Source of the DNA: a virus
Taxonomy: Duplodnaviria; Caudoviricetes
IMG/VR virus record: IMGVR_UViG_3300029288_000079
Span: 32,001-96,000 of that record
Strand: one strand, 5' to 3'
Length of the DNA stretch: 64,000 nucleotides
The notes beneath the pieces were generated by a model that saw nothing but the letters and a program-made list of their open reading frames with translations, did no database searches and was not told the DNA's origin. Shown in pieces: positions 35,582-64,000 of the stretch; positions within the stretch are counted from its first letter, which is position 1, and each line of letters starts with the position of its first letter. The translations under genes and the position numbers were made by a program.

Positions 35582-37279
35582 TTAATCAAATTTATAAATA
35601 TAACTTATTTCTGCAGATCCATTAATACCACTGTAGCCAGTTGTAAATTTATACCACCATCCTGGAGGTACGAAAAATGACATATTACCAAATGTAAATA
35701 AAACATCAGTGCTGTAATAATTATTGTATTTTTGAGTTCCTACAATACCTACTTGCATAGTACAGGCGGCATTAGTGGGGCCAATATATGCCATACTATA
35801 GCCATAACCTATACCAGAAGCTGTAGCTCCATATCCAGAAACAACTCCTCGAGCGGTTATAAATATTGTATAAGGTTTAGTGTTTTGATAAGCTACGTTA
35901 GCGATTGTAGTACTTGTAATGTCATTTACGCATCCAAATTGATTGGCAAGAGATTTTTGACCACTACCCGACCCACCAATAATTACAGGCATACTTCCAG
36001 GAAAAGCATCTACACTACCTGTTGAAATCAATCCTATAGCCCCTCTAATCATTCTAAGCTCATCCTGCAGAGATCCTGAAGCCACGCTTGTATTAAAAGC
36101 TACGGGAGATCTATTAGATAATGATGCATCACGTATATCTGATGTATCCATTGTATAGAATTGTCTCGAGTCTGTATAAACTATTTGGATTCCCCCATCA
36201 TTAACTACAGCTGAGCCTAGTTTTAAATATTGAGAGTACTTATGTGGATTTTCATCCTCCCATATATAAGATGTCTGACTTATAAATGCAGGAACACAAG
36301 CCGAATTCACAACTACCCAATAATTACCATCAGCCATTAGAGGAGATACTGCATATAAGTTTGGAATAGACCCAGAAACCATATTCCCATTAATTAACAT
36401 ATATGCACTACTTGGAGTTTGAAACTCTATATAGTCAATTCCTAAATCTATTACAGATCCTAAATAACTGGATTTTGCTATATCATTTCTAGAAGTTAAT
36501 ATTATACCATTTACATGACTATAACGTTCATGATCTGCAATATCTTGACCTGTATATCCAAGATCGGATAGGTTCTGACCATGAGGGTTTGTAGTAGATA
36601 TAGCAGCATGACCAATAGCCTTTACATGATCTTCTACACTAGTCCAACCCATAGTTAAAGATGGTTCAATCAAAGGATCTAATATAACAGAATTTGCAGG
36701 AGTAATTGTTCTACAATACTGTCTCATGTCTGTAATAATTCCACTGATATACCCACTACTATTTGCAGTAAATCTACCTAAAGGTATTTCACCTACGGAT
36801 GCTGATGCAGCTTCAATTCTTATTTGATAACTATCATAATAACGAGTATAAAAATTTATACCTATATCATCAGATTGTAAAGATCCCGAAGACTCCTGAT
36901 ATTTTAATTTAATATATTTTGTGCCAGATGTAGTTTCAGTCCAATAAGAAGTTGCTGTATTATCACCTAATGTAATAGTATGACTATTATTTATATTAAT
37001 AAAATTTCCACTAGAATCTAAAGCAGATCCTGAAGCAACTATAATTATAGTAGAACTATTTTGATTACAATAGAAATTACTGGTAGTCTTAGCATAATCC
37101 TGAGGAGAACCATATATACCTCCCTGAGATATATTACCTCCTGTAAGAGAGGATATACCACCAGAATTTCCTAAAGTTGACAAAGATCTTTTGGCAACCT
37201 GGTTAGAAACGGATGATTCAATGTTATTAAGATCATCGGACATTACATCTTGATCATTAAAAAAGTTAGCTCGTTCCAT
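35582..37279 (-). CDS. Baseplate-associated/short tail-fibre protein
   Basis: Follows baseplate genes; NFFNDQ..DDLN N-terminus; NPHG; C-terminal YQNT...SFFVPPGWWY fibre-tip-like domain. Confidence 0.6.
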   Translation of the reverse strand: MERANFFNDQDVMSDDLNNIESSVSNQVAKRSLSTLGNSGGISSLTGGNISQGGIYGSPQDYAKTTSNFYCNQNSSTIIIVASGSALDSSGNFININNSHTITLGDNTATSYWTETTSGTKYIKLKYQESSGSLQSDDIGINFYTRYYDSYQIRIEAASASVGEIPLGRFTANSSGYISGIITDMRQYCRTITPANSVILDPLIEPSLTMGWTSVEDHVKAIGHAAISTTNPHGQNLSDLGYTGQDIADHERYSHVNGIILTSRNDIAKSSYLGSVIDLGIDYIEFQTPSSAYMLINGNMVSGSIPNLYAVSPLMADGNYWVVVNSACVPAFISQTSYIWEDENPHKYSQYLKLGSAVVNDGGIQIVYTDSRQFYTMDTSDIRDASLSNRSPVAFNTSVASGSLQDELRMIRGAIGLISTGSVDAFPGSMPVIIGGSGSGQKSLANQFGCVNDITSTTIANVAYQNTKPYTIFITARGVVSGYGATASGIGYGYSMAYIGPTNAACTMQVGIVGTQKYNNYYSTDVLFTFGNMSFFVPPGWWYKFTTGYSGINGSAEISYIYKFD

Positions 37280-37301
37280 AATTTCACCAATTTAATTTAA
37301 G

Positions 37302-40300
37302 TTATGTTTTCTCTAAGGGTAATTTATACAGGTTATAATAAGATAAATCCTTACTTCTAAAAACTCGTGGTTCAATAGCTTTTAAAGCAAATCCATAATA
37401 TTGAAAGTCTCCGGAACCTGAAGCAAATACAGAAACCTTAGACTGATAATAGTTATCCACTGATCCTGACGCTATAATTATAGGCTCAATATATCTAGGA
37501 GCATACTGAATAAATCTTTCTTTAATAGAATCAGGAGTAGATGCCCATGGAGATATCATTATTTCATCTATAGCTATATTATAAGAAGATGAATTATTAT
37601 TACTTATATATAATTCTGTAGGAGAATTAGATATATTCTGTGGATTTACAGTTATAGATCCAGAAGAAATATATTCTCCATCAACAAAAAACTTTGCTTT
37701 ATTATTTTTACATGTTACTGTAAAATAATGATATCTTCTTGGTTCTTCTAATAAATATGTTGATATAGATGCTGATGCGACACTAGTAGTAGATCCTGAC
37801 TTTGCAGTATAAGAAAAAGTTTCTTCATCAGAATCTATAGATATCAAATATCCATCTCCTACCAATGAAGTACCTGCAGCAGATGTAGTCTCGCGCTTCA
37901 AAATTATAAGTCCCGTACCGTCAGCAAAGGTTTTATCAACTCCATTTATTAAAAATTCTGCAGTCAGACCTGCATATGAGTCTATATCATTTGTAGTATT
38001 GCCCGTATAAATTAAACTACTATTAACACCATGATCAACTAAATTCATAGACAAAGCTAGTCTATCTGAAGATCTGCCTATTTCAAATATAGGGTTATTA
38101 GAAGAGCTAGATTTTTGTAGATTATTCATATTACCTGAAATATCCCAAAGTGAACTGCTGCTAAGCATTACCCAATGAGCCCCACAAGCTCCTTTTATTC
38201 CACTATATATAGAATTAATTCCAGTAATATCTATGATACATCCAGAACCAGAACCACCTGTAGTTATATTTCTTTTATTTACAACATATCCACTAGATCC
38301 ACTTGATAATAGAGTTACCTCTGAAACTATACCCCCAGAAATTGCTTTTACTTCAGTTATATTAACAGTACATCCTGATCCTGAACCACCTGTAGTTACA
38401 TTTCCTGTACTTACAGAATATCCACTAGAACCTTCAGAAATTAACTCTAATAAATTAACTTCTCCACCAGTATTTTTATTAATACCTGTTATATTAACAG
38501 TACATCCTGATCCTGAACCACCTGTAGTTACATTTCCTGTACTTACAGAATATCCACTAGAACCACTTGATAATAATGAAATAGAAGATACAACACCTCC
38601 AAGCAGACCCACATCAGGTGTTACCTCAGTTATATTAACAGTACATCCTGATCCTGAACCACCTGTAGTTACATTTCCCGATCCAACTGTATATTTCGAT
38701 TGCCCCCCATAATATAATGAAACTGATGTAGCAGAACCGCCACCATTAGCTTCAATACCTGTTATATTAACAGTACATCCTGATCCTGAACCACCTGTAG
38801 TTACATTTCCTGTACTTACAGAATATCCACTAGAACCACTTGATAATAAATTAACATCTACAATACTACCACCACCACTAGCTTCAATACCTGTTATTTC
38901 AATAGTACATCCTGATCCTGAACCACCTGTAGTTACATTTCCTGTACTTACAGAATATCCACTAGAACCACTTGATAATAATGAAACTGAACCAACTCCC
39001 CCTCCTGATCCTAAAGTTATAATAGACCCAGACATAGTTTGTGTAGGATCACTATACGAACAAAGTATTCCCGAAGCATAATATCCTGGTAAAATTGATG
39101 TTAGAGTAACTACAGGTAATGAACCTGTACCATTCGTAGCAATATGCTTTGTACCTTCATTTATTTTAGATACAATAGCATTAGCGGTATTTACTGCAGA
39201 AGAACCTGATCCTATAGTTAAACTATATCCCGTGTATCCTAAAAGATAAATAGAAGCTATTGATCCTGAACTACTAGTCCCATTTACTGTTATATTAAAA
39301 GATTCTTGTACACCACCACTACTAACAGTTAAAACCTTAGCTACAGCATCACCAGACCCACCCGTTAAAGTAATTAAATCATCTACAGCATAACCTGATC
39401 CACTAGCAGTTGTAGTAGAGTTTATAGCAGAAATTAAACCTGTTAAAGTACTGGCAGAAGCAACTTGTACAGTAGCATCACCAGAACCACCTGTAAGTGT
39501 AAGTATATCTCCTGTTACATAAAGTAATCCTGAAGCAGTTGGGGCAGAAGCTATAGAAGATACCTTACCTATAAGATTTGTTGCTGCTGACACATTAACT
39601 GTAGCATCTCCCGAGCCTCCTACAACAATAAGTCTATCATTAACTACATATCCTGTACCTGAAGCTGTGGGAGAAGAAGCTACTGATATAATTTTACCAC
39701 CACTAGCTTCAATACCTGTTATTTCAATAGTACATCCTGATCCTGAACCACCTGTAGTTACATTTCCTGTACTTACAGAATATCCACTAGAACCACTTGA
39801 TAATAATGAAACTGAACCAACTCCCCCTCCTGATCCTAAAGTTATAATAGACCCAGACATAGTTTGTGTAGGATCACTATACGAACAAAGTATTCCCGAA
39901 GCATAATATCCTGGTAAAATTGATGTTAGAGTAACTACAGGTAATGAACCTGTACCATTCGTAGCAATATGCTTTGTACCTTCATTTATTTTAGATACAA
40001 TAGCATTAGCGGTATTTACTGCAGAAGAACCTGATCCTATAGTTAAACTATATCCCGTGTATCCTAAAAGATAAATAGAAGCTATTGATCCTGAACTACT
40101 AGTCCCATTTACTGTTATATTAAAAGATTCTTGTACACCACCACTACTAACAGTTAAAACCTTAGCTACAGCATCACCAGACCCACCCGTTAAAGTAATT
40201 AAATCATCTACAGCATAACCTGATCCACTAGCAGTTGTAGTAGAGTTTATAGCAGAAATTAAACCTGTTAAAGTACTGGCAGAAGCAACTTGTACAGTAG

Positions 40301-41762
40301 CATCACCAGAACCACCTGTAAGTGTAAGTATATCTCCTACATTATATTTAGAACCCACAACAGTTGGAGTTGAATTTATAGATAATATCGATCCAGATGC
40401 AGTGCTTACTGTCTTAACCTTAACTGTAGCATCTCCAGAACCACCTGTAAGTGTAAGTATATCATCCACCTCATATAGAGATCCCTTAGCTGTAGGAATT
40501 ACATCTATGTTTGATATATTAAATGTTAAAGTACTGGCAGAAGCAACTTGTACAGTAGCATTTCCAGAACCACCTAAAACTGTAAGTATATTTCCTACAA
40601 CATACAGAGATCCGGCAGAATAAGGTGTTGGATTTATAGATGATATTGTTCCTGCTGAAGATAAATCTCCCTCTCCAGCCATCCATTTTATTGGCTCTGA
40701 AGATACTAATTGATAATAGACAGAATCGGGAATAGAAGATGATGCGTAAGATCTTAAATATCTATCATAGTAAGCATCATTCTTAGCCAAACAAGTCCAA
40801 TCTACTACACTTCCACTAGATTGATATATCAAATTAGATGTGTCTAAAACCTCACTTATAATATTATGATTATTACTATCTATCCCCCAAGTAGTTTCTA
40901 TACTATTGGTAAGAAATGAATTTTTCATTTCAAAATAATTAGAATTATATGTTGAGCCTGTAGCACGACTTAAAATATAATCACTCTTATAAAAAAATCT
41001 TGGAACAATATCTGCACGAATATTTTTTGAAATACTTTTTTCAATAGAGTCTTTAAAAGAAGAATCATTAATCAAGGAATAAATATATATGTCCAACCCA
41101 TTGTAAAATTGCTGTCTACTACGTAATTTTGTATTATGACCTAACTTAGTATATGTTACTTTAAAAGTATCCCCTACAGAAAAAGATATATCTGTAGGAA
41201 GAATAGTTCCTATACGAGATATTGATGTGTCAGATATAATAAATCCTTTTCCAATAGCTATAACAGATCCTGATTGATTCGACAAACACCAACCATCATA
41301 TCCAGACCTTTGACTATCAATGATATAGGGGGCCACTCCTAAGTAAGATTGACTAATTAAATCAATACCCATTTGTGTAGTGGCTACATTAGATGCTTCA
41401 TTTATTAATTTTAAGTTTGTACGGTAATCCTGAAGACCTGAATCATTATTATATGTCTCGTAATCTTGATTGCTTTGCTTTAATAATTGTGCAAGTACAC
41501 CAAAATTTTCATATATTTTAGTATTATCACTAGATCCTACAGGTATAGTCCTAACTTCATCAATATTAAGATCATTATATGTATTATTTATTTCTGTAGA
41601 AGCTGAGGATAACTGATCAGCACTCATATAAAGCATCTTGTAAATAGAAGTTCCAAGAATATTTACGGGATACCAACGAGGTGACAAATAAGAAAACATA
41701 TTTGCAACTATTCTATTAACTGAGCCTGCAGCATGATCAGACCATTTTAAGTATATTGCCAT
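37302..41762 (-). CDS. Large baseplate/fibre protein with Ser/Gly/Thr-rich repeats and a C-terminal LamG-like domain
   Basis: Directly after baseplate J; repeated SSGSSGYSVSTGNVTTGGSGSGCT units; YHYFTVT...FFVDGE...IDEIMIS. Confidence 0.65.
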   Translation of the reverse strand: MAIYLKWSDHAAGSVNRIVANMFSYLSPRWYPVNILGTSIYKMLYMSADQLSSASTEINNTYNDLNIDEVRTIPVGSSDNTKIYENFGVLAQLLKQSNQDYETYNNDSGLQDYRTNLKLINEASNVATTQMGIDLISQSYLGVAPYIIDSQRSGYDGWCLSNQSGSVIAIGKGFIISDTSISRIGTILPTDISFSVGDTFKVTYTKLGHNTKLRSRQQFYNGLDIYIYSLINDSSFKDSIEKSISKNIRADIVPRFFYKSDYILSRATGSTYNSNYFEMKNSFLTNSIETTWGIDSNNHNIISEVLDTSNLIYQSSGSVVDWTCLAKNDAYYDRYLRSYASSSIPDSVYYQLVSSEPIKWMAGEGDLSSAGTISSINPTPYSAGSLYVVGNILTVLGGSGNATVQVASASTLTFNISNIDVIPTAKGSLYEVDDILTLTGGSGDATVKVKTVSTASGSILSINSTPTVVGSKYNVGDILTLTGGSGDATVQVASASTLTGLISAINSTTTASGSGYAVDDLITLTGGSGDAVAKVLTVSSGGVQESFNITVNGTSSSGSIASIYLLGYTGYSLTIGSGSSAVNTANAIVSKINEGTKHIATNGTGSLPVVTLTSILPGYYASGILCSYSDPTQTMSGSIITLGSGGGVGSVSLLSSGSSGYSVSTGNVTTGGSGSGCTIEITGIEASGGKIISVASSPTASGTGYVVNDRLIVVGGSGDATVNVSAATNLIGKVSSIASAPTASGLLYVTGDILTLTGGSGDATVQVASASTLTGLISAINSTTTASGSGYAVDDLITLTGGSGDAVAKVLTVSSGGVQESFNITVNGTSSSGSIASIYLLGYTGYSLTIGSGSSAVNTANAIVSKINEGTKHIATNGTGSLPVVTLTSILPGYYASGILCSYSDPTQTMSGSIITLGSGGGVGSVSLLSSGSSGYSVSTGNVTTGGSGSGCTIEITGIEASGGGSIVDVNLLSSGSSGYSVSTGNVTTGGSGSGCTVNITGIEANGGGSATSVSLYYGGQSKYTVGSGNVTTGGSGSGCTVNITEVTPDVGLLGGVVSSISLLSSGSSGYSVSTGNVTTGGSGSGCTVNITGINKNTGGEVNLLELISEGSSGYSVSTGNVTTGGSGSGCTVNITEVKAISGGIVSEVTLLSSGSSGYVVNKRNITTGGSGSGCIIDITGINSIYSGIKGACGAHWVMLSSSSLWDISGNMNNLQKSSSSNNPIFEIGRSSDRLALSMNLVDHGVNSSLIYTGNTTNDIDSYAGLTAEFLINGVDKTFADGTGLIILKRETTSAAGTSLVGDGYLISIDSDEETFSYTAKSGSTTSVASASISTYLLEEPRRYHYFTVTCKNNKAKFFVDGEYISSGSITVNPQNISNSPTELYISNNNSSSYNIAIDEIMISPWASTPDSIKERFIQYAPRYIEPIIIASGSVDNYYQSKVSVFASGSGDFQYYGFALKAIEPRVFRSKDLSYYNLYKLPLEKT
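38871..40338. repeat. 643-bp direct repeat (38871-39513 = 39696-40338)
   Basis: Copies appear identical by eye; offset 825 bp, in frame. Confidence 0.9.
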
Positions 41763-43170: not shown

Positions 43171-43174
43171 TTTA

Positions 43175-48758: not shown

Positions 48759-49528
48759 ATAATTAAATTATTATTTACTGCTAGAGTTGTAGATAATTCT
48801 TCTTGAACCTTAAATGTAAATGAGAAATCTACTATATAAGGTTTTTCAGAACTGGCTATGGGACCAGTAAAATCGGTAAAGTATCCTATGAAATATTTAT
48901 CATAATAGTTCATCCCTAACAAAATTGTATCTTTCTGATTCTTAACTCTATGATCACTGTCATATAAGGCTTTCAATTGATTTAACCTCTGCCAAGCTAT
49001 AGATGTAGTAACATCATCTTCTTTACCTAGAACAGTACCATGTGTAAACTTATGCAAGCCACCTGACTTTCCTTCAACCCTTACTTCTGTTAAGGCATCT
49101 CCCCAATGTTGTATTTCCCACCCACCTCTAGTTCTTATTTCTGTTTGTAACTTCCTATACGTAGGAGTTATATGCTGAGGATCTAGATAGAATTCAAATA
49201 CATTTGGAACTGTCGCATTATCTTCTTCGTTAGTTTTTTCTTCCGTACCTTTTATATAATATTTTTTACTATCCATTTTTATATAAAGACCATATTTATT
49301 TGGACCATGCACAGTTTTGTCCATATACTGAAATGTGGATCCGCTATATTCAGGTATACTACTTGGATATATTCTGACTTTACCCTCTACCCATGATTTA
49401 TCAGAATAGATAATATCATTTTCTGAGATATCCTCAAGATACCATGAAGAAGCTAATTTCTCAAACCCAACTTTTTCATTGTTCCCACTTCTCTTTAATC
49501 TATATATTCTAAAAGGAATTTTACCCAT
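48755..49528 (-). CDS. Tail tube initiator/baseplate protein
   Basis: RTRGGW..QHWG, YIGYF..F..., FSFTFKV; position after tape measure. Confidence 0.6.
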   Translation of the reverse strand: MGKIPFRIYRLKRSGNNEKVGFEKLASSWYLEDISENDIIYSDKSWVEGKVRIYPSSIPEYSGSTFQYMDKTVHGPNKYGLYIKMDSKKYYIKGTEEKTNEEDNATVPNVFEFYLDPQHITPTYRKLQTEIRTRGGWEIQHWGDALTEVRVEGKSGGLHKFTHGTVLGKEDDVTTSIAWQRLNQLKALYDSDHRVKNQKDTILLGMNYYDKYFIGYFTDFTGPIASSEKPYIVDFSFTFKVQEELSTTLAVNNNLII

Positions 49529-50730: not shown

Positions 50731-50732
50731 AT

Positions 50733-52841: not shown

Positions 52842-52842
52842 A

Positions 52843-53456
52843 TTATAATATTATATCCAAATCTTTTGGTAGTTCAGAATCTGCTTCTGCCATAGCTTTT
52901 CGTTGCTTATTAAAAGCCACATTATCATGCTTAGCTACCTTATGTTTTTCTACATCAGACCACAATTTAGGGTTTATCCATGGGATGATGCTATCTCTAA
53001 CAGCTTCTATAAGATCTATATTTTCTTCCTTATCTATAATAGTACTATAAAGAATCCACATCTTTTGTTCATCTATCATGTCTTTAATAGGTGTCTTTGA
53101 AGCATGATTATAAATTATCCAATTACTTCTAGATATATTTTTTCTACAAAAATCTTCTACATTTTCTCTTACATATTCAGACCATTCCTCCAAAGCACCC
53201 TTAAAATCACTCCATAATTCTGAAACTAAATAAGTAGATAAATTTTTAATTATATTAGTATTTTCACAGCCAAAACTTTTCTCTAATATATTTATAGGCA
53301 TGGTGTTACATAAACCAATCAATGTAACTGGAAACTGTAATTTATTAAGATTTATATTTGATGAATCTTGAAAAGGACGCAATAATACTTTAGGAGGTAT
53401 CCCGTCTATAAAAGCTTTTTCAAGATCTGGTTGGGTAAACTTAAACCGCTTTGGGG
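52843..53456 (-). CDS. Second tail-assembly chaperone segment (T-like), possibly reached by frameshift
   Basis: Between chaperone and tape measure. The first ~75 aa of the 280-aa track ORF merely overlap the upstream gene. Confidence 0.5.
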
Positions 53457-54196
53457 CAGGACTCTCTATGTTTCTTAAATTCCTCAAGACTATCCAGCTC
53501 CTTCCCACATTTACAATTATAATCGGAGAACTCGAAAGAGCCATCAGGCTCATCGACTTTTGCTTCAGAGTTAGTTTCTGAAGCTTTTGTAGCAAGATTT
53601 GATGATTCTTCCTCTTCATTTTCTTCGAAATTAAAATCTTGCAAGGATATTTTATCTTTACAATTTGGACATATAATTTCTGCAAGACTATATTTTAAAA
53701 CAAAAGAATCTTCTGGAAAGTTTTTTTCTGAAAAAACTTGACCACAATAACCACAAGATAAATTATTATTAAGAACTCTAACTTGTTTTAATTGCAAGCC
53801 TGAATATACAAATTGCAATCTCTCTATAACAATATTTTCTAGATTTTGAATCCAGCCCCTCAGATATTGTAATTCAGAAAGATTTGTTTTATGCTGATCA
53901 TTATATTTTTTAAGTTCTTCAAGAGAAATAAGAGATCTACCATCTATAGACCAAATAGATCTTATTAGTGTTTCTTGAACTGTAGATATATCTCTTGCAT
54001 TTTCTGGAATCTCATCACAATATTTAGCAATATCTAAAACCTCTCCTGCATTACATATACGCATACCAAAAATTTTATTTTTCCATTTAGTTCCAACCCA
54101 ATCATGGAAGGGTTTTATTTCATAAATACTACTATCTTTTGTTATTTGACCCAGCTCCTCCAGCGAAGTCAATATATCATTGACAGGCTCCATCAT
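53441..54196 (-). CDS. Tail assembly chaperone (G-like) with zinc-binding motifs
   Basis: Immediately after tail tube; CGYC, CPNC, CKC..H..C; GGAGG SD. Confidence 0.6.
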   Translation of the reverse strand: MMEPVNDILTSLEELGQITKDSSIYEIKPFHDWVGTKWKNKIFGMRICNAGEVLDIAKYCDEIPENARDISTVQETLIRSIWSIDGRSLISLEELKKYNDQHKTNLSELQYLRGWIQNLENIVIERLQFVYSGLQLKQVRVLNNNLSCGYCGQVFSEKNFPEDSFVLKYSLAEIICPNCKDKISLQDFNFEENEEEESSNLATKASETNSEAKVDEPDGSFEFSDYNCKCGKELDSLEEFKKHRESCPKAV

Positions 54197-54211
54197 ATAA
54201 CCTCCATTATA

Positions 54212-54658
54212 TTATCCAATAACAATGAATTCCACTTGCAGAGAAACATTCTCTGTAACTGTTATCTGACCCTCACGAATATTTTTACCTAGAGAATCTA
54301 TCCAGCAATTGTGATATTCGGTCTTTTTAATTTCACCATTAGGACCTTGAAGAATCTCCGTTATATTAATCGGGTTTGTAGCTTTGGATACTTCATCAGA
54401 ATTGCTAATACCTAGGGCTTCTAATAGACTATTTTCATAAGTTTCTAATCTATCAATAGTTATTCTATATTCACTACGGCCAGGAACTATCTCAAAGGTA
54501 TCTTTGTCACTAGCATTTCTATTTATCTCAAAAATGCGTTCCAAACGTCTACTCATTGTAGCATTAAACCCTTGTAGAGTTCCAATAGCCTTACCATTGT
54601 TATTTTTTACAGTATAGGCGTAAGAAACAACTGTTTTTCTATTTGGAATACTTGCCAT
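54212..54658 (-). CDS. Tail tube protein
   Basis: 148 aa after sheath; IGTLQ, EIVPG, YHNCWI. Confidence 0.8.
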   Translation of the reverse strand: MASIPNRKTVVSYAYTVKNNNGKAIGTLQGFNATMSRRLERIFEINRNASDKDTFEIVPGRSEYRITIDRLETYENSLLEALGISNSDEVSKATNPINITEILQGPNGEIKKTEYHNCWIDSLGKNIREGQITVTENVSLQVEFIVIG

Positions 54659-54720: not shown

Positions 54721-56190
54721 TTATCCGACATATGTTGATACAGTACAAGAAATAAATTTTAACGGGTATAATGGCATATAACTACATGTAAGATCCACCT
54801 GTCTTGGTTCTATAGAATTCTGAACCGCTGATATAGCAACCTCACCTGTTATAGGATTATCAACTTGGCCATATCTATTTATTTCCCTAGCATTAATTAG
54901 AGATTGTAAAATACTACCACCAGTTGCAATTACATCAAGTATTGTTGTAGATGTTATTACAACGCCTTTACCTTTAAATGCATTATCTAAACCATCTTTT
55001 AAAGTTCGTTTTACTAATCTACGAACTGATTCCACAGACTCTTCCTCAGTATCTGCTGACGTTGAGTCGGTAGTGATACAGTCTCTAATAGTTATGACAC
55101 CTGAACGACTTTCTAATACGAGAGCACCTGCAGCTCCCAATTGATTCATCTCATATTCATTCCACTTTTCATCTTCAATAATTATACCTGTAACAACCAT
55201 TCCAGTTAAAGGTGTTGATCGTAAAGATTGAGATCCTTTAAGACCTGCAACAGCAATAGCTGCATAATTACCATCAAGTTCCATATATGCATTGTTAGCG
55301 TCTTTTCTACGCACACGACTAGGAACAACATATATTCTTCGTCTATCATTTATAGCATTAGCTCGATAACAATATGTTCCAGAAGCTGTAGTATCACCTA
55401 TAGTATCAAACCCATCTGATGCACTATAGGGTGAAGGAGATCCATCCATAAGTCCACGACCTCTATTAGCATTGTCCATAGTTAATACATGCGTATAGGC
55501 ATATGTTATAATAGATTGCTGACTTGCAGCAGTAACACTTCCAGAAGGAAATACACATACAACAGATTCAATATTTTTCTTTTTCTTCAACGTATCAATT
55601 GCAGTCTTATATGCAGCTTCTGAATAAGTAGATCCAGAAGACTGAACCAACATAACTGCAGGACTTCCATTCTCAATTGCAATTGACCCAGCAATTGCAA
55701 GTATACCATTTGTGGTATTTTCAGAACCATACTTTGCTAGAATAGAAGTTTTGTCACTCATAATAGCAGGATCAAATTGAGTTGTAGGAACATCATAATT
55801 ATATGTTACATAGTATGTTGATCCTGTTGCAGGAATATCTGCAGGAACTGTACCTTGTGTCCAGCTCATAATACCTGTAGTTCCTGTAGAACCTGATGCA
55901 GCTACATTATTTGCATATAAAGCACCATTAATTACTATATCAATTGCAGCGGCAGATCCTGAAGCAATTCCTGGAGTATTAGCTATTTGTGTTGTAACAA
56001 CTGATGTAGCAGGATATGCAGATAGATTATCTGTAGCCCCAACACCTCGCGTAATAGCCTCATCAATGACATATCTTTTCATCGGACCTATTCCGACAAT
56101 TGCCGGAATCATATTATCACCAGCAATATTAATTATTCTTGGATTGTCTACTGTGTTTACAGTAGTTCCAGGTTGTCTATAACTAGGCAT
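54721..56190 (-). CDS. Contractile tail sheath protein
   Basis: YRQPGT N-terminus; C-terminal PLYPLKFI; RDCITT. Confidence 0.88.
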   Translation of the reverse strand: MPSYRQPGTTVNTVDNPRIINIAGDNMIPAIVGIGPMKRYVIDEAITRGVGATDNLSAYPATSVVTTQIANTPGIASGSAAAIDIVINGALYANNVAASGSTGTTGIMSWTQGTVPADIPATGSTYYVTYNYDVPTTQFDPAIMSDKTSILAKYGSENTTNGILAIAGSIAIENGSPAVMLVQSSGSTYSEAAYKTAIDTLKKKKNIESVVCVFPSGSVTAASQQSIITYAYTHVLTMDNANRGRGLMDGSPSPYSASDGFDTIGDTTASGTYCYRANAINDRRRIYVVPSRVRRKDANNAYMELDGNYAAIAVAGLKGSQSLRSTPLTGMVVTGIIIEDEKWNEYEMNQLGAAGALVLESRSGVITIRDCITTDSTSADTEEESVESVRRLVKRTLKDGLDNAFKGKGVVITSTTILDVIATGGSILQSLINAREINRYGQVDNPITGEVAISAVQNSIEPRQVDLTCSYMPLYPLKFISCTVSTYVG

Positions 56191-56259: not shown

Positions 56260-57330
56260 CTAGTCAGTATCATAAAATGCTGTTGGTATTGCCGTTGTAT
56301 CCTTCAAATAATTAGCATTAAACTGTTGTGACCATTCTGTCATTACAGTAAGTGATATCGGTACAGTAAAAATAAGGTCTTTTTCACCTCTTCTACGATT
56401 TTCTACAGCTCCTATTCGAATATCCTTAATATTTATACCTGCAACAGATAGTGTTCCTGAAGAGTTTGAATAAGAGATAGTAGGTAACTCCATACCATCA
56501 ATAGCATCAGATTCTCTGCTTATAACAGCATGTTTACCTAAAGATAAATATTGAATTATAAGTTCAGACAAATCATAAGCTTGTGCAGTTTGATTCTTTG
56601 ACATGCATCTAAAGACCATATTACACTCATATAAGCCACCAAATGTTAGACTACTTGGAAATCTTACAAATCCTACAACACTTCCTGTGGATTGGATACT
56701 ACCCGTACCAGAAATATATTTTGTAGTCCTGGTAGTATCTATTCCAATATAATAATCACTACCCGAAGCTACTTGAAGTTCAATCCAATAATCTTGTTGA
56801 TCTAACGTAATTGTTGGAAATAATTCAGTTTCCATATCTTGAAATGTTATTTCAGTTATACCTGATAAAGACCCTGAAGCAACTAATATAGGTGTTGTAA
56901 GATAATCTTTATATAAATTAACTGTAATGTCATCTCCACCCCCACCTGTCTGTGACCAAGCTCCTTTTAAAGATATGTTTCCTAAAGTTTTAGTTAGTAA
57001 ATTATCAGTCAATGAAAATGCTACTGGAGCATTTGATGATAAAATAACCATTGAAAGATTTCTATTACCTATAATCTCCACACTATCAGCTCCTGTAGTT
57101 AAAAAGTCATTAAATCCAAAAGGAGTTATAGATCCTCCATTACTTCCTAACGTTATTACAGGATATTTCTCATTCTCATTATAAAATTGTTCAAATACTA
57201 ATTGCTCACTTCCACTTGAGAATTGTACAATCTCTACTCCCAGATTAACCCATTGAGAGTTATAACGAAAAACTCTGCGGAGATAATTTGTTAAATTACT
57301 TATGAGATATTTGTTTAAATGATAATGCAT
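56260..57330 (-). CDS. Tail completion/terminator-like protein
   Basis: Upstream of sheath; YPVITL motif. Confidence 0.5.
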   Translation of the reverse strand: MHYHLNKYLISNLTNYLRRVFRYNSQWVNLGVEIVQFSSGSEQLVFEQFYNENEKYPVITLGSNGGSITPFGFNDFLTTGADSVEIIGNRNLSMVILSSNAPVAFSLTDNLLTKTLGNISLKGAWSQTGGGGDDITVNLYKDYLTTPILVASGSLSGITEITFQDMETELFPTITLDQQDYWIELQVASGSDYYIGIDTTRTTKYISGTGSIQSTGSVVGFVRFPSSLTFGGLYECNMVFRCMSKNQTAQAYDLSELIIQYLSLGKHAVISRESDAIDGMELPTISYSNSSGTLSVAGINIKDIRIGAVENRRRGEKDLIFTVPISLTVMTEWSQQFNANYLKDTTAIPTAFYDTD

Positions 57331-57710: not shown

Positions 57711-58580
57711 TCATACTGTTGTTATAGATATATTATATCTTGGGTCCGTTTTTTCTATATACCTTAATTTAAATCTCTGCGTAATAAGAGACCCCTGGAT
57801 ATATGAATCTCTTTTATCTACAACTTCATAACGTTCTTCTTCACCACTGAAAGTTTGATCACCAAATGCCACAAAAATATCATAATTATAAATTTTAGGC
57901 TCCCAAATTATCCAGCAATCTGCCTGTTCCATCTCAACTCGGCCCTCCTCATTGACTATGAGCTCATTTTGAGATAATGGGTACCTGAGTAATACTTGAT
58001 TAACTCCTCTAAATCCATCAAAGGTAGTGTCAAGATATTGCTTCCACCCATATAAAGAGTCATTAGTACCTTCACCAGACTTCACTCTTTCAACGTTAAT
58101 TCCAGGTTCTAGAGTAGTATAATAATACTGGATAATAGACCCAGAAGCATTGAAGCCTGTATTAAATACTAACTCCACTCTTGCAGGAGACAGATCCACA
58201 CGCTTGACAACTGCAAACTCATTATCATTTACAAGGTCATCAATATCAATAACCCGAGTAGCTTCTACAGAATTTATTAGAACAGATATAGAACCTTTTC
58301 CATCATTAGTATATGGCCTTATATCCGGATGATTGGATCCTGAGGACCAGATAGAAGCTCTATATCTTGGAATTGTCTCAACATAAGATGTCACTGTGTA
58401 TGGACTTGTAGCATTACCTGCAACTGATCCCGATCCCAAAGTTTGTAATAAATATACTTTAAGCGGAGATATCCTAGATTGGATAACCATAGATTCTCTT
58501 ATATAGTTTATAATTTCTGTCTCACAACAACCAAGCATTCCATCATAGTCATTGATACTTGGATAATTAGGATCAGACAT
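57711..58580 (-). CDS. Neck/head-closure-like virion protein
   Basis: Position; C-terminal ERYEV...QRFKL...DPRY. Confidence 0.5.
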   Translation of the reverse strand: MSDPNYPSINDYDGMLGCCETEIINYIRESMVIQSRISPLKVYLLQTLGSGSVAGNATSPYTVTSYVETIPRYRASIWSSGSNHPDIRPYTNDGKGSISVLINSVEATRVIDIDDLVNDNEFAVVKRVDLSPARVELVFNTGFNASGSIIQYYYTTLEPGINVERVKSGEGTNDSLYGWKQYLDTTFDGFRGVNQVLLRYPLSQNELIVNEEGRVEMEQADCWIIWEPKIYNYDIFVAFGDQTFSGEEERYEVVDKRDSYIQGSLITQRFKLRYIEKTDPRYNISITTV

Positions 58581-59730: not shown

Positions 59731-62700
59731 TTATAACTTCACTATACCTACCTTATACAACGTCCCACCAACATCTAGTTGTATATACTGTGTTGTATCT
59801 AATGAAACTGTGGCAGCCACACGAACACCAAATTTCCAAAATGCAGCAGTACCTCCACTGGGAGCCCCTGTCTTCAAACCACCAGTAACCAAGCACTGAG
59901 CTGCGGTTATATAAAATCCATAACCAGCAGCGTTGGTCTGAGTACCAGCATACAAAGCATTGCCATTATTAGCTGCTGCATAAATAACATCACCTGCAGT
60001 AGTACCACCAGGACCAACAGTAAGTGTGCCCACAACTGTCACCTTACCACTAAAGTAGCCAGCATGAACTGCGCCCCCTGTATAAGCAGTACCAGCTATT
60101 GCATATAATGCATAACTTGTTGATCCTGTGTTTGTAGCATTACCCCCTTGTGCATAAATACCGTAAGAAATAGCAGTACCTGCATCTACATTTTGTGCAA
60201 GTCCGCCAAGAAAATATCCAGCATAAGAGTACTGAGTTCCTACGGAGCAGTAATTAACTCCTCCAGTTACTTTCAACGCATAAGAACTTGTGTCTGTTGT
60301 GTTATTAGTATTAGTGATATTAAACACACCAGTTGCCCCATCCACATCTTGCGAGATGGTCATTGTAGCAGCTGTTGAAGTCAAAGGGCTATTTGCCAAT
60401 CCCGTAGCATCAGAAACATGGTAAGGTACATAGCTATTAGTAAGACCACTAAGTTTAGCTGTTACAAATACAGGACTATCAGCTGTAGTTAACCCAGATA
60501 CAACAGACTGATTTAATGTTTGCCAACTTTTATCACCTCTCCAATACTGAGATACAGATCCTGTAGATATTACTGGTTCATACACTCCAGTATGTAAATG
60601 ATCACCATAAGCAGCGGTTGCATGGTCTGTTCCAAATCCTGGAAAAGTAGTTAAACCATTCCAATTAGACTGATCTGTAGTTGTAGGAATATAATATCCA
60701 CTTCCAGAACTTACTGTAATATTTGTAGTTCCAGATCCAGAAATTACTCCTGTTAATGTAATATTTTGATTCTCAGTTAAAAAAGTAGAATTATCATAAG
60801 ATATTAAAGATCCTGAAGCTTTTATAAAACCTAATCCATTTATAATATTTTGTTTATTATAAAATGTATTCCAATCAGTAGATGATAATACACCAGTAGT
60901 AGATATAGATGCTGAAGCAATAGATATCTCTTGAATGTTTAATGATAACCCATTTGAAGGACTTCCTATAGTAACAGGTGGATGTGGAGCATAGGTATTA
61001 TCCCAAGTTAAACTTCCAGAACCATTATTGTATAAATGTCCAATATCATTAGATAAATTTCCTATTGTAGTTAAATTTGCATATGCATTTTGTTTATTAT
61101 AAAATGTATTCCAATCAGTAGAATCCAGATAACCAGATATAGAAGAAGAAGATTTTGTAATTTGCAAAGTAACTCCAGACCCAATAACAGACCCAGAACC
61201 TCCTGTAATTACAATAACAGAGCTTTCAATTTCAGTTAAATTACCCTTTGCAAGAACTGCTTCTCTAGATGTGTCAATAGGATGAACATGATCGGCTCTT
61301 GGAAGATTTTCAAGAAAACCAACTGAAACCTCTCCATTCATCTTTATATTACTTATGGATGTTTCAAAATCTTTATTAAAAGTAGAGCCAGAAGCAATTC
61401 CTATAAGAGATGTTCCATTGTTAAAAATAGCAATTTGCCCAGAGCTTCCAGACCCTATAATAGGATTTGTTAATAAGTCTTGTTTACTATTAAATGTATT
61501 CCAATCTTCTGAAGATAAATAACCATCAGTAGAAGCTGAAGATTTTTGTACAGATATAGAAGTACCTGAACCTATAACAGAATTTGTACCTCCTGTAATT
61601 GTTAAGATAGAAGATCCTGTTTCTGTTAAAGAACCAGATGAAAATGCATTTTGTTTAGAGTTCCATGTAACTGCAGAAGATATATAAGCATCAGCAAGAG
61701 GTGTACCAAGAGTAATTCCACCACTAAAGCCAACACTGCCACTATTCCCAGTTAATACATTTGAATTGGGTAGAGTTAGAGTGCCAAATAATTGTGTTGA
61801 ACCATCCCCAAAAACTGCAAGTCCCGTTTCCCAGCCACTCAACCCCTGTAAGCGCGTTGCAAAACCAGACCAGTTACCACATGTCAATATAATATCGTCA
61901 ACTGAATTTATAAAAAACTGCCCACTCCCGGTGTGTTCAAAAAAAGAACCACCACCAATCGCCGACGCAACAAAGTGCATTTGTGATGTCCCATCAGTTT
62001 TACTGTAAATATTCCCACAAGTCAGCGTACCCGGCCCTATATCTATTGCACCAAAGCCACTTGTAATACTGCCAGAAGCTAATGCACCCACAGTTGTAAT
62101 TGTAGATGAACCAGTATTCGCCAAAGCAGCCATTGTTCCAATGTTGGTAGCAGATAGATCCCCAGTGATAACTGTATTCCCATAAATATTTACAACTCCA
62201 TTTGCACCAGCACCGGCACCATAGCCAACCTGTATAGCAACACTACCACCATCGCCTTCATTCGCTGCACTACCTGCCTGAATACTTATAGAGCCACCAT
62301 CACCAGAGGTTGCTCCACCATTATTTGCATACAGAGCTATAGAACCACCACCTTCAATTTCTCCTGCAGACTCCGAATAACCTAATTCTAAGAGATTACC
62401 CTCAAAGCTAAAATAAGGTTTTTGTTCTTGTCCTACACCAACACCCGTAATATAGCCAGCATCAATTTCTGTTAGCCAATTTCCAGCTTCCCCTAATGTG
62501 ATGGAGCCACTAGCAGTTATATTACCACTACTATTAATATCACCACAATCTAGAGTTCCATTAATAGTTAAAACTCCTACATCGCTACGATATAATGTAA
62601 TATCATTATTCCAACTTAATTTACCCTCAGTAGCGAATCTGATTGCAGCATTCTCAGTTCCTCCTACTGTTTGATCATCAAAATAAGCACCCCAAGCATT

Positions 62701-64000
62701 TGTCATCGTGCCATTTTGAAGTAGATGTGCTACAAATTTAACTCCTATAGCGTTAGTACTTATTGTTGCAGCACCACCACCCATCCAACTATTATGTTGT
62801 ACTTGGGTAGATATACCTATTAAGTCTGTTACGGTGCCCGCAGCTAAATTAATCGAGATAAACTTTCCTGCAATTACTAACGCTGGAGCATAGTTACCAT
62901 TAGTAGCACCACCTGTCCCTATAGATACATTTGATTCTATCCCATACGCTATTGCTGGTTGTACAGAACCTGATGGATCAGTATGTCTTACAAATCTTGC
63001 AGCCCCTGTTTCATCAATAGCATTATATGGAATAGGTCCTACTCTATCTACACATAATAAAGCATGTGGAGTCATATTCAACACACGGTCTGCAATATAC
63101 ATTGAAGCTTTTGTTCTGTCAGTACCAGGATTTATTCTTACATTCCCATTAACCAGTAACTGATTAATATTAGATGTACCACCAATTCCTACCAAACCAA
63201 TACTACTTATACTCATTCTAGCTACACCAGTAGGATAATCACCCCCTGTATAAAATACATAACCTCCGTTACCAGTAATCCAATTTACATTTCCATCATA
63301 ATCAGTCCGCCACTTTGCCGATAAATTCCCATTTACAAACGAACTAATTACATTCTGTCCTGTGGCACTCGGATTCGTCATTATTATATGAGAACCAGCA
63401 CCTCCAACATTAGTATAGTCTATATTGGTTTTATTAATAGTTAAACTATCACCACAACCAATAGAGCCACTTGCACTTAATCCACCACAAGTTTCAACTG
63501 TTCCAAGAGTAGTAATATTTGTACTACCTGCCCAAGTAGATAGTGCTGTATCTTCAACGGATCCTAACCCTACAGCAGACTTATCCAATGTCTGCCAACT
63601 CTTGTCCCCTCTCCAATACTGAGATACAGATCCTGTAGATATTACTGGTTCATACACTCCAGTATGAGTATGATCCCCATATGCTGCATGTGTATGGTCT
63701 GTTCCAAATCCTGGAAAAGTAGTTAAACCATTCCAATTAGACTGATCTGTAGTTGTAGGTATATAATATCCACTTCCAGAACTTACTGTAATATTTGTAG
63801 TTCCAGATCCAGAAATTACTCCTGTTAATGTAATATTTTGATTCTCAGTTAAAAAAGTAGAATTATCATAAGATATTAAAGATCCTGAAGCTTTTATAAA
63901 ACCTAATCCATTTATAATATTTTGTTTATTATAAAATGTATTCCAATCAGTAGATGATAAATAACCATCAGTAGAAGCTGAAGATTTTTGTACAGATATA
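59731..64000 (-). CDS. Long tail fibre protein, 5' end outside the window
   Basis: Frame stays open from 63657 to 64000; DWNTFxxKQ, QYWRGDKSWQTL, DHxH and RADHVHP repeats. Confidence 0.8.
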   Translation of the reverse strand, partial: ISVQKSSASTDGYLSSTDWNTFYNKQNIINGLGFIKASGSLISYDNSTFLTENQNITLTGVISGSGTTNITVSSGSGYYIPTTTDQSNWNGLTTFPGFGTDHTHAAYGDHTHTGVYEPVISTGSVSQYWRGDKSWQTLDKSAVGLGSVEDTALSTWAGSTNITTLGTVETCGGLSASGSIGCGDSLTINKTNIDYTNVGGAGSHIIMTNPSATGQNVISSFVNGNLSAKWRTDYDGNVNWITGNGGYVFYTGGDYPTGVARMSISSIGLVGIGGTSNINQLLVNGNVRINPGTDRTKASMYIADRVLNMTPHALLCVDRVGPIPYNAIDETGAARFVRHTDPSGSVQPAIAYGIESNVSIGTGGATNGNYAPALVIAGKFISINLAAGTVTDLIGISTQVQHNSWMGGGAATISTNAIGVKFVAHLLQNGTMTNAWGAYFDDQTVGGTENAAIRFATEGKLSWNNDITLYRSDVGVLTINGTLDCGDINSSGNITASGSITLGEAGNWLTEIDAGYITGVGVGQEQKPYFSFEGNLLELGYSESAGEIEGGGSIALYANNGGATSGDGGSISIQAGSAANEGDGGSVAIQVGYGAGAGANGVVNIYGNTVITGDLSATNIGTMAALANTGSSTITTVGALASGSITSGFGAIDIGPGTLTCGNIYSKTDGTSQMHFVASAIGGGSFFEHTGSGQFFINSVDDIILTCGNWSGFATRLQGLSGWETGLAVFGDGSTQLFGTLTLPNSNVLTGNSGSVGFSGGITLGTPLADAYISSAVTWNSKQNAFSSGSLTETGSSILTITGGTNSVIGSGTSISVQKSSASTDGYLSSEDWNTFNSKQDLLTNPIIGSGSSGQIAIFNNGTSLIGIASGSTFNKDFETSISNIKMNGEVSVGFLENLPRADHVHPIDTSREAVLAKGNLTEIESSVIVITGGSGSVIGSGVTLQITKSSSSISGYLDSTDWNTFYNKQNAYANLTTIGNLSNDIGHLYNNGSGSLTWDNTYAPHPPVTIGSPSNGLSLNIQEISIASASISTTGVLSSTDWNTFYNKQNIINGLGFIKASGSLISYDNSTFLTENQNITLTGVISGSGTTNITVSSGSGYYIPTTTDQSNWNGLTTFPGFGTDHATAAYGDHLHTGVYEPVISTGSVSQYWRGDKSWQTLNQSVVSGLTTADSPVFVTAKLSGLTNSYVPYHVSDATGLANSPLTSTAATMTISQDVDGATGVFNITNTNNTTDTSSYALKVTGGVNYCSVGTQYSYAGYFLGGLAQNVDAGTAISYGIYAQGGNATNTGSTSYALYAIAGTAYTGGAVHAGYFSGKVTVVGTLTVGPGGTTAGDVIYAAANNGNALYAGTQTNAAGYGFYITAAQCLVTGGLKTGAPSGGTAAFWKFGVRVAATVSLDTTQYIQLDVGGTLYKVGIVKL
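60536..63960. repeat. ~350-bp near-identical direct repeat in tail fibre (60536-60888 and ~63608-63960)
   Basis: Direct comparison; differences cluster in the DH(AT/TH)AAYGDH(L/T)H segment. Confidence 0.85.

What the first reader, a model, noticed from the sequence alone, without database searches (positions are those of the whole stretch)
35582..64000. (A/S)-S-G-S motif studs outer virion proteins: candidate O-glycosylation sequon
Seen (manual counts of SGS): sheath 4 (IASGS, AASGS, SSGS, PSGS), neck 3, tail completion 3 (VASGS twice), the 565-aa fibre 5, and many in the 1486-aa protein (including its non-repeat parts) and the long fibre. I found none in tube, tape measure, hub, spike, NrdJ or helicase, and only scattered single copies in other non-structural proteins. 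The motif occurs in unrelated folds, so shared ancestry does not explain it. Inference: convergent accumulation of an acceptor motif on exposed surfaces for the adjacent glycosyltransferase cluster, giving a sequon-directed glycan coat on the virion.
Basis: partly seen in the sequence, partly recalled or inferred. Interest (0 to 1): 0.82.

Follow-up and report, generated by a model that had tools for sequence, protein, structure and literature searches.

The report
Ser/Thr-Gly-Ser tag on phage tail
The outward-facing tail and fibre proteins of this 182-kb uncultured phage carry the tripeptide Ser-Gly-Ser up to about ten times more often than chance, and the same excess travels with one conserved pair of phage sugar-transferase genes in several unrelated phage lineages, so it is probably where the phage attaches its own sugar coat, although no chemistry shows this yet.

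Summary
SGS is the most over-represented of all 8000 tripeptides in six non-fibre tail proteins (16 vs 1.7, p 5e-11). It is also enriched in three fibre-like proteins and sits at expectation in the other 185 ORFs (11 vs 13). Codons vary, local-composition shuffles do not remove it, and the carriers share no BLAST-detectable homology. The core is ordered: SGS x7.1, TGS x2.9, SGT x1.1, TGT x0.3. In 73 sheath homologues it occurs only in the two outer domains (220 vs 29), never in the inner C-terminal domain.

Only two soluble GT4 genes (32162-33448, 30960-32153) are shared by all motif-rich relatives. Phages carrying this GT4 family show the excess in 5 of 6 lineages, including cultured Flavobacterium phage immuto (SGS top tripeptide), Rhodothermus RM378 and Microcystis Mel-JY01. 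Four GT4-less phages and one apparently GT-less in-clade relative do not.

Best reading (about 0.6): [S/T]-G-S is a cytoplasmic O-glycosylation acceptor tag on exposed tail surfaces. It covers the tail and fibres only, not the head. No chemistry exists, and at least one conserved sheath site may be structural.

This scan has noted the same tag on other DNA (32 notes, at least 30 genomes). I saw those notes only after my own tests.

The parts
54721..56190 (-). Tail sheath, 489 aa, 4 SGS at residues 77, 99, 185, 216 (DNA 55954-55962, 55888-55896, 55630-55638, 55537-55545)
   Evidence: Fold matches solved sheaths (phi812, AFP, pyocin R2). AF2 pLDDT 87.9. 4 vs 0.39 expected. Sites 185 and 216 are conserved in 60 and 62 of 73 homologues; sites 77 and 99 are variable.
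56260..57330 (-). 356-aa beta-sandwich virion protein just upstream of the sheath, 3 SGS (residues 39, 152, 189); function unassigned
   Evidence: 3 vs 0.31. Orthologues carry 0-5 SGS spread over 14 alignment columns; L-A-S-G-S-I at 152 is present in 11 of 16. AF2 pLDDT 72 places site 189 in a beta-hairpin turn. Only weak fold hits to phi812 neck and baseplate chains.
57711..58580 (-). 289-aa tail-module protein, 3 SGS (residues 50, 80, 146); function unassigned
   Evidence: 3 vs 0.17. Orthologues carry 0-5 copies at shifting positions. No Pfam or PHROG hit.
35582..37279 (-). 565-aa fibre-like protein, 5 SGS
   Evidence: 5 vs 0.94, P 0.001; 5 vs 1.2 with local shuffles.
37302..41762 (-). 1486-aa repeat-rich fibre or baseplate-distal protein with a ConA-like lectin domain, 27 SGS (13 distinct contexts)
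59731..64000 (-). Long fibre ORF (full length 1714 aa, runs to 64875 beyond the window), 16 SGS in the window and 21 in all, 18 distinct contexts
32162..33448 (-). GT4-A, 428 aa, soluble GT-B glycosyltransferase with an intact EX7E motif; the candidate initiating protein O-glycosyltransferase
   Evidence: PF00534 35 bits. Shared by all motif-rich genomes at 34-48% identity. Best solved relative is chlorovirus B736L, 3OY2, E 8e-11. EX7E present. No TM-like segment.
30960..32153 (-). GT4-B, 397 aa, second conserved soluble GT4, EX7E intact
   Evidence: It sits next to GT4-A in G002, G003, G004, G018, the jumbo-phage lineage (L086) and phage immuto (gp181/gp180).
21994..30960 (-). Further glycosyltransferases (GT2-GT4 fusion 29077-30960, GT4 26702-27631, GT2 25609-26424, GT2 23923-24648), SAM methyltransferase 24652-25386, B12-radical-SAM enzyme 22674-23930: presumed glycan extension and tailoring
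   Evidence: Shared with G002 and G003 but not G004. None has a TM-like segment.
13652..22088 (-). Nucleotide-sugar pathway (DegT-type PLP enzyme, ThDP enzyme, PanB-like enzyme, B12-radical-SAM enzyme, three SDR dehydratases/epimerases): presumed donor-sugar supply
   Evidence: Variable between relatives.
46452..54658 (-). Motif-poor inner tail parts used as the internal contrast: tube 54212-54658 (0), chaperones (0), tape measure 50733-52841 (0), 768-aa hub-region protein 46452-48758 (0); one single copy in the 257-aa ORF 48755-49528
   Evidence: The same genes have 0 in nearly all related loci.

Best explanation
[S/T]-G-S, with Ser required at the third position, Gly preferred in the middle, and usually a hydrophobic strand before it and V/I/L after it, is an acceptor tag read in the cytoplasm by the phage's own soluble GT4 pair (428 aa and 397 aa). 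One of the two puts the first sugar on a Ser/Thr hydroxyl of folded or folding tail proteins. The other GTs, the methyltransferase and the unusual-sugar pathway then extend and tailor the glycan. Because selection acts on having tags on exposed loops rather than on fixed positions, the tag accumulates convergently on unrelated outer tail proteins (sheath outer domains, two small tail proteins, fibres) and stays off buried parts (tube, tape measure, hub, inner sheath domain) and off the head. The likely result is a glycan coat on the tail and fibres, for masking, stability or adhesion.

Shown: the enrichment, its ordered core, its placement, its turnover, and its co-occurrence with the GT4 pair.
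Inferred: that the tag is glycosylated, which residue is the acceptor, and what the coat does.
For: 1. Enrichment is real and specific. SGS is the top tripeptide in the non-fibre tail set (16 vs 1.7) and at expectation in the rest of the genome.
2. The core is ordered: SGS x7.1, TGS x2.9, SGT x1.1, TGT x0.3 in the enriched proteins of four genomes, and all about x1 in their other proteins. The same asymmetry appears in RM378 (SGS 29/11, TGS 24/8.6, SGT 8/8.6, TGT 8/7.5).
3. The carriers are not homologous by BLAST, and the motif persists from 29% to 55% GC.
4. Placement: in 73 sheaths it occurs only in the two outer domains (220 vs 29) and never in the inner C-terminal domain (0 vs 4.0). Sites sit at strand-to-loop transitions in the AF2 models.
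5. Turnover: beyond a few conserved sites, copies appear and vanish at 16, 14 and 7 alignment columns in the three families.
6. Co-occurrence: only the two GT4s are shared by all motif-rich genomes. SGS or TGS ranks 1-25 of 8000 in G000, G002, G003, G004, G006, G011, G013, immuto, RM378 and Mel-JY01. In G001 SGS is 99 vs 19.
7. GT4-less G005, G007, E3 and Tunturi_5 rank 2151, 541, 420 and 138. Ser/Gly/Thr-rich fibres of G005 are at expectation.
8. In-clade G015 has no GT island in the syntenic place and no excess outside its sheath.
9. All GTs are soluble and there is no flippase or polymerase.
10. In immuto, LC-MS/MS of virion DNA found dA, dC, dT and fdPreQ1 and reported no glycosylated nucleoside, so DNA is not the evident GT target there (PMC10516641).
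11. [quoted passage not shown]
Against: 1. No chemical evidence exists for any of these phages.
2. Co-occurrence rests on few independent contrasts: 5 of 6 GT4-positive lineages against 0 of 4 GT4-negative, Fisher about 0.02, my own hand calculation. I found the positive lineages by searching for the GT4.
3. TJE1 has a distant GT4 homologue (23% identity) and no excess. G013 shows only a weak excess (rank 25).
4. Sheath sites 185 and 216 are strand-to-helix loops of a Rossmann-like domain, and site 216 is kept in the apparently GT-less subclade, so some copies may be structural.
5. In G001 the SGS sits once per 25-residue fibre repeat, where a purely structural hinge role is also plausible.
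Confidence: 0.6

Rival explanations
1. SGS is a lineage-preferred structural element (tight turn, strand-to-helix cap, fibre-repeat hinge) with no modification. The GT4 pair acts on something else, such as host envelope precursors or another acceptor, and merely co-occurs in large phages of this kind.
For: Sites 185 and 216 of the sheath are strand-to-helix loops conserved to 41% identity. Site 216 persists in L002-L004, where no GT was found. There is one SGS per 25-residue fibre repeat in G001. Hairpin-turn placement in the 356-aa model.
Against: A generic turn would accept SGT, TGT, NGS or DGS equally, yet only [S/T]GS is enriched. Ser/Gly/Thr-rich fibres of GT-less G005 show no excess. Beta-rich buried tail proteins of the same phage have none. 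The same tripeptide recurs in non-homologous proteins of lineages from 29% to 55% GC. Many sites turn over rather than being fixed.
Confidence: 0.17
2. [S/T]-G-S is a tag for a different process: another post-translational modification (phosphorylation, acylation, phospho-sugar or polymer attachment), or a docking site for an assembly factor or decoration protein that co-travels with the GT island.
For: An ordered, short, surface-placed, convergently gained motif fits any enzyme-read or partner-read tag. The island also encodes a methyltransferase, two B12-radical-SAM enzymes and several small unknown ORFs.
Against: Only the two GT4s are conserved across all motif-rich genomes; the methyltransferase, the rSAM enzymes and the small ORFs are not found in G004. 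No kinase or acyltransferase was seen in the island. Hydroxyl residues at positions 1 and 3 fit O-glycosylation most simply.
Confidence: 0.15
3. The excess is a statistical or compositional artefact: low-complexity Ser/Gly patches, internal repeats, or post-hoc motif choice.
For: 14 of the 27 copies in the 1486-aa protein are repeat duplicates. The motif and the protein set were chosen after looking.
Against: SGS ranks first among all 8000 tripeptides without being picked in advance. It survives block shuffles and removal of repeat copies.
Confidence: 0.02

Closest known systems
Mycobacteriophage virion glycosylation by phage-encoded glycosyltransferases (Freeman et al. 2023, Cell Host Microbe; known here only through citing papers PMC12619734 and PMC12582341, because the paper itself is not held)
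   Same: Phage-encoded soluble GTs that modify the phage's own virion proteins in the cytoplasm before release, giving a glycan coat on the particle.
   Different: There the glycans are reported at the C-termini of capsid and tail-tube subunits (PMC12619734). Here the head and tube carry no motif excess, and the candidate sites are internal [S/T]-G-S tripeptides on the sheath, small tail proteins and fibres. The phage type, hosts and GT set all differ, and nothing has been shown chemically here.
Aah/TibC autotransporter heptosyltransferases (BAHT family)
   Same: Cytoplasmic O-glycosylation of many sites on beta-rich surface proteins. [quoted passage not shown]
   Different: BAHTs are a separate enzyme family with no sequence consensus at the acceptor. 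Here the enzymes are GT4 and the acceptor has a sharp tripeptide core. This is a resemblance in working principle only.
Chlorovirus GT4 B736L / A546L (PDB 3OY2, 3OY7) and chlorovirus capsid glycosylation
   Same: B736L is the closest solved relative of GT4-A (E 8e-11). It is a virus-encoded soluble GT-B enzyme in a virus that glycosylates its own structural protein at non-canonical sequons using viral cytoplasmic enzymes (PMC9614988).
   Different: The acceptor of B736L is unknown. It binds GDP-mannose, but the NY-2A capsid glycans lack mannose (PMC9614988). Chlorovirus glycans are N-linked at NTXT-type sites on the capsid, not O-linked tail tags. Similarity covers only part of the protein at low identity.
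GtfA/GtfB glycosylation of serine-rich repeat adhesins
   Same: A pair of adjacent GT-B proteins initiates cytoplasmic O-glycosylation of Ser in S-x-S-type repeats, and further soluble GTs extend the glycan (my own knowledge, not from a held paper). In the sheath family SASAS alternates with ASGS at one site.
   Different: GtfB is non-catalytic, whereas both phage GT4s keep EX7E. There is no NCBIfam match to GtfA or GtfB. The acceptors here are isolated tripeptides in folded domains, not long Ser-rich repeats.

Membership tests
GT4 / Pfam Glycos_transf_1 retaining GT-B glycosyltransferases (for the 428-aa and 397-aa proteins) | Match to PF00534 above the gathering score | tested here: met
   428 aa: 35.1 bits; 397 aa: 27.6 bits; cut-off 26.4.
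GT4 / Pfam Glycos_transf_1 retaining GT-B glycosyltransferases (for the 428-aa and 397-aa proteins) | EX7E catalytic signature in the C-terminal Rossmann domain | tested here: met
   EGFGLCVSE at residue 281 of GT4-A and EGWCRPLAE at residue 267 of GT4-B. The signature is conserved in GT4-A orthologues from G002, G003, G004, L086 and immuto. In GT4-B it is present in G003, G004, L086 and immuto and is interrupted by an intein-like insert in G002.
Mycobacteriophage-type virion glycosylation (Freeman et al. 2023) | Phage-encoded glycosyltransferases present in the genome | tested here: met
   Seven GT genes at 21994-33448.
Mycobacteriophage-type virion glycosylation (Freeman et al. 2023) | Glycans on C-terminal segments of capsid and tail-tube subunits | tested here: not met
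   The tube has 0 motif copies and no ORF outside the tail module has more than 1. The candidate sites are internal and lie on the sheath and fibres.
Mycobacteriophage-type virion glycosylation (Freeman et al. 2023) | Glycans demonstrated chemically on virion proteins | not testable with these tools
   Needs purified virions and mass spectrometry.
BAHT (Aah/TibC) protein O-heptosyltransferase systems | Enzyme belongs to the BAHT family | tested here: not met
   The GTs of the window match GT2 and GT4 Pfam families only, and no curated NCBIfam family reaches its cut-off.
BAHT (Aah/TibC) protein O-heptosyltransferase systems | [quoted passage not shown] | tested here: inconclusive
   S185 of the sheath is the first loop residue after strand 179-184, and S189 of the 356-aa protein lies in a 4-residue hairpin loop. 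The residue after the motif is hydrophobic in 60% of sites against 34% background. Other sites lie in longer loops or inside strands, and only two proteins were modelled.
GtfA/GtfB serine-rich-repeat glycosylation | One catalytic GT4 plus one non-catalytic GT-B partner; acceptor is a long Ser-rich repeat region | tested here: not met
   Both phage GT4s keep EX7E. No GtfA or GtfB NCBIfam hit. The motif copies are isolated tripeptides in folded domains.
Sequon-directed protein glycosylation (general concept) | Short ordered motif enriched on acceptor proteins beyond composition, and depleted or absent where the transferase is absent | tested here: met
Sequon-directed protein glycosylation (general concept) | The motif residue is shown to carry a glycan | not testable with these tools
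   No proteomic or glycan data for any of these phages was found in the held literature.

The most novel reading that the evidence does not exclude
A widespread, previously undescribed virion O-glycosylation system of large myoviruses, found in uncultured groundwater/landfill-type and aquatic phages and in cultured phages of Flavobacterium, Rhodothermus and Microcystis. A conserved pair of soluble GT4 enzymes reads a defined tripeptide sequon, [S/T]-G-S, on exposed loops of sheath and fibre proteins. It would be the first sequence-defined O-glycosylation sequon for a phage, and the tail would be clothed in lineage-specific, partly exotic sugars.
Probability: 0.5. Interest if true: 0.85.

Novelty: new variant of a known kind. 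Interest (0 to 1): 0.77.

Why it matters
Glycosylation of phage particles by the phage's own enzymes has been shown chemically in very few systems, and no sequence-defined acceptor motif is known for any of them.

If [S/T]-G-S is such a sequon, glycosylated tail proteins could be predicted from sequence alone across many uncultured and cultured phages. The conserved GT4 pair would become a marker gene for virion glycosylation. The unusual-sugar pathways next to it would gain a defined destination.

A glycan coat on the sheath and fibres could affect adsorption, resistance to proteases and to grazers or antibodies, and particle stickiness. These properties matter for phage ecology and for phage-based applications.

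Three cultured phages carry the pair and the motif, so the idea can be tested directly with standard glycoproteomics.

Tried and rejected
- **DNA-level repeat as the source of the motif.** Rejected: the codons vary.
- **Shared ancestry of the carriers.** No BLAST hit at E<1e-3 among tail-module proteins.
- **Ser/Gly richness or local low complexity.** Rejected by global and block shuffles.
- **A general property of Ser/Gly/Thr-rich fibres.** Rejected: fibres of GT-less G005 are at expectation, and its SGT excess comes from the DPFxGSGT motif of three DNA methyltransferases.
- **G006, L009 and L015 as counter-examples (GTs present, few SGS).** Resolved: they use TGS in the same proteins.
- **The GT pair as a GtfA/GtfB-like catalytic plus non-catalytic couple.** Rejected: both keep EX7E.
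- **DNA as the GT target.** Made unlikely for immuto by published nucleoside analysis (PMC10516641). Not tested for this phage.
- **Naming the 356-aa and 289-aa proteins.** Pfam, PHROGs and Foldseek gave nothing firm.
- **Reading Freeman et al. 2023.** The paper is not held.
- **Solvent accessibility of motif residues.** Model coordinates are not exposed to scripts.
- **Literature searches for an SGS-type sequon or glycosylated phage tails.** Nothing relevant beyond a note that jumbo phage XacN1 has at least two glycoproteins.


Full report
**What the window is.** The window is bases 32001-96000 of a 181,733-bp uncultured phage genome, with all genes on the minus strand. The flagged region holds the tail module:
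- the sheath (54721-56190; fold confirmed against phi812, AFP and pyocin sheaths);
- tube, chaperones, tape measure and baseplate genes (Baseplate_J at 41764-43170);
- three large fibre-like proteins;
- two unassigned proteins of 356 and 289 aa upstream of the sheath.

Immediately downstream lie two metallophosphoesterases, seven glycosyltransferase genes, a methyltransferase, two B12-radical-SAM enzymes and a nucleotide-sugar pathway.

- Each carrier exceeds composition-matched shuffles 5 to 18 fold.
- In a scan of all 8000 tripeptides over six non-fibre tail proteins, SGS ranks first (16 observed, 1.71 expected, p 5e-11). The set comprises the sheath, the 356-aa and 289-aa proteins, and three small proteins just past the window end. 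ASG and GSI, which overlap SGS, rank next.
- In the other 185 ORFs of the genome SGS is 11 against 13 expected.
- Shuffling inside 10- or 20-residue blocks, which keeps local composition, leaves 15 against 2.2 or 1.8.
- After removing internal-repeat copies the 1486-aa and 1714-aa proteins still have 13 and 18 distinct sites.
- Codons at the motif vary freely, so this is not a DNA repeat.
- The carriers show no BLAST similarity to each other.

**Anatomy of the motif.**
- From 134 non-redundant sites in four genomes the logo is Phi-[A/S/P/V]-S-G-S-[V/I/L]. The residue after the motif is hydrophobic in 60% of sites against 34% background, and Ala and Pro are about three-fold enriched just before it.
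- The core is ordered: SGS x7.1, TGS x2.9, SGT x1.1, TGT x0.3, SAS x1.8. All of these are about x1 in the other proteins of the same genomes. The third position therefore needs Ser, while the first accepts Thr.
- In 73 sheath homologues (41-100% identity) the mean is 3.0 copies against 0.39 expected. Sites 185 and 216 are kept in about 60 of 73, and the rest are scattered over 14 further columns.
- By domain, the N-terminal beta domain has 65 against 15.8, the alpha/beta domain 155 against 13.2, and the C-terminal domain 0 against 4.0. From general knowledge of sheath structures, the C-terminal domain forms the inner layer.
- In the AF2 model (pLDDT 87.9) sites 185 and 216 follow strands 179-184 and 207-212 and precede helices. 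Sites 77 and 99 lie in loops of the outer beta domain.
- In the 356-aa model (pLDDT 72) site 189 is a hairpin turn.
- The 356-aa and 289-aa families mix conserved sites with many gains and losses, from 0 to 5 copies per orthologue.

**Relatives.**
- Loci with related sheaths repeat the pattern. The sheath and the 356-aa homologue are motif-rich, and tube, tape measure and hub have 0.
- Whole genomes were then scanned without picking a tripeptide in advance. SGS ranks 3rd in G000, 1st in G002, 4th in G004 and 10th in G003, which has 55% GC. In G001 it is 99 against 19.
- G001 fibres are 25-residue tandem repeats, each with one SGS.
- Three members that looked poor in SGS (G006, L009/G018, L015) use TGS in the same proteins.

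**Link to the glycosyltransferases.**
- Of all genes in the sugar and GT island, only the 428-aa and 397-aa GT4s have orthologues in every motif-rich genome. The sugar pathway differs between them, and complete genome G005 has none of these genes.
- Both GT4s keep the EX7E signature and lack TM-like segments, as do all the other GTs.
- None reaches a curated NCBIfam cut-off.
- The closest solved relative of the 428-aa enzyme is chlorovirus B736L. B736L is a GT-B enzyme that binds GDP-mannose, and its acceptor is unknown (PMC9614988).

**Other lineages found through the GT4 profile.** Searching viral contigs with a profile of the 428-aa enzyme found 45 loci, 31 of which show an SGS excess in their flanks at p<0.05.
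- **Jumbo-phage lineage.** These phages have sheath paralogues of more than 1000 aa, and the GT4 pair lies upstream of the baseplate genes. BLAST shows no tail-protein similarity between the loci checked from this lineage and G000. The two proteins after the gp6-like wedge are motif-rich. SGS is the top tripeptide of G011 (77 against 29) and ranks 25th in G013.
- **Cultured phages with the enzyme.**
  - Flavobacterium phage immuto: SGS ranks first (61 against 22.5). The copies concentrate in the annotated tail sheath, tail spikes and structural proteins, with none in the portal, terminase or baseplate wedge.
  - Rhodothermus phage RM378: SGS ranks 4th and TGS 6th, with SGT and TGT at expectation.
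  - Microcystis phage Mel-JY01: SGS ranks 4th.
  - Tetrasphaera phage TJE1: it has the most distant homologue and shows no excess.

**Controls without the enzyme.**
- G005 ranks 2151, G007 541, Rhodococcus phage E3 420 and Tunturi_5 138.
- The Ser/Gly/Thr-rich fibres of G005 are at expectation for [ST]G[ST].
- Inside the sheath clade, G015 runs from its tail genes straight into replication-type genes. It has no homologues of the two fibres and no GT island, and it shows no excess outside the sheath.
- In that subclade only sheath site 216 is always kept, site 185 decays, and sites 77 and 99 are absent.
- By lineage the tally is 5 of 6 with the enzyme against 0 of 4 without (Fisher about 0.02, my own hand calculation). 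This is suggestive, not conclusive.

**Interpretation.** The points in its favour are the ordered core, the restriction to exposed domains and outer parts, convergent gain in unrelated folds, site turnover, persistence across very different base compositions, and co-occurrence with the pair.
- For immuto, published nucleoside analysis found fdPreQ1 replacing dG and otherwise canonical nucleosides (PMC10516641). DNA is therefore not the evident target of its GTs.
- The working principle resembles Aah/TibC, which modify the first loop residue of a strand-loop-strand motif (PMC3835316).
- Which hydroxyl is the acceptor is open. Position 1 fits the Aah analogy and its tolerance of Thr. Position 3 would fit a Ser-only transferase.
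- I put the glycosylation reading at about 0.6.
- The main rival is a purely structural preference, which may well hold for sheath site 216 and perhaps site 185.
- The head carries no excess, so 'virion coat' should read 'tail and fibre coat'.

**Novelty.** Virion glycosylation by phage enzymes is known for mycobacteriophages, where glycans are reported at the C-termini of capsid and tube subunits (PMC12619734). A tripeptide acceptor motif on sheath and fibres, tied to a specific GT4 pair, was not found in the held literature. The same tag has been noted by this scan on other DNA: 32 notes in at least 30 genomes. I read those notes after my own tests. They agree with my reading but are not independent evidence.

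Noticed in passing
L030:6673-9114 (minus strand; G002 = IMGVR_UViG_3300033233_000004): The orthologue of the 397-aa GT4 is 813 aa long because about 410 residues are inserted exactly inside the EX7E catalytic motif. The insert is bounded GEGY|C...VVHN|C, which looks like an intein sitting in the active site of a glycosyltransferase.
   Followed up: no
G001 (IMGVR_UViG_3300027863_001119) 42220-45927, 131032-133086 and 1-1512: Fibre proteins built from 25-residue tandem repeats (NLQNQITLV-SGS-LTTEIQNRI...), with exactly one SGS per repeat. A single 1235-aa protein has 37 copies.
   Followed up: partly
window 59731-64000, continuing to 64875 beyond the window: The long fibre ORF is 1714 aa in the full genome and contains a large internal duplication: the same three SGS contexts recur about 1024 residues apart.
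   Followed up: no
whole proteomes of G002 and G004 (relatives): Unbiased tripeptide scans show other strongly over-represented tripeptides (G002: ADI, DII, KTA; G004: SDA, DAN, QQI). These may be counterparts of the LSWDI polyprotein linker already noted for this genome, using different letters.
   Followed up: no
window 34241-34648 (minus strand): A 135-aa ORF with an N-terminal TM-like segment (Kyte-Doolittle 1.83) sits between two metallophosphoesterase genes, at the border of the tail module and the GT island.
   Followed up: no
L153 (Microcystis phage Mel-JY01, PP395634.1 83441-84932): The homologue of the 428-aa GT4 is annotated as two adjacent ORFs (198 and 313 aa open frames), so it is split or frameshifted. 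The proteome is still SGS-rich.
   Followed up: no
G015 (L002 plus L201; IMGVR_UViG_3300036761_000812): An in-clade relative whose tail genes are followed directly by replication-type genes. Homologues of the 1486-aa and 565-aa fibres, Baseplate_J and the whole GT and sugar island are missing at the syntenic place.
   Followed up: partly
G005 (IMGVR_UViG_3300028048_000069) 56897-57703, 62798-63589, 66716-67402: Three paralogous DNA methyltransferase-like ORFs, each with DPFxG[ST]GT. They account for this GT-less phage's SGT excess.
   Followed up: no
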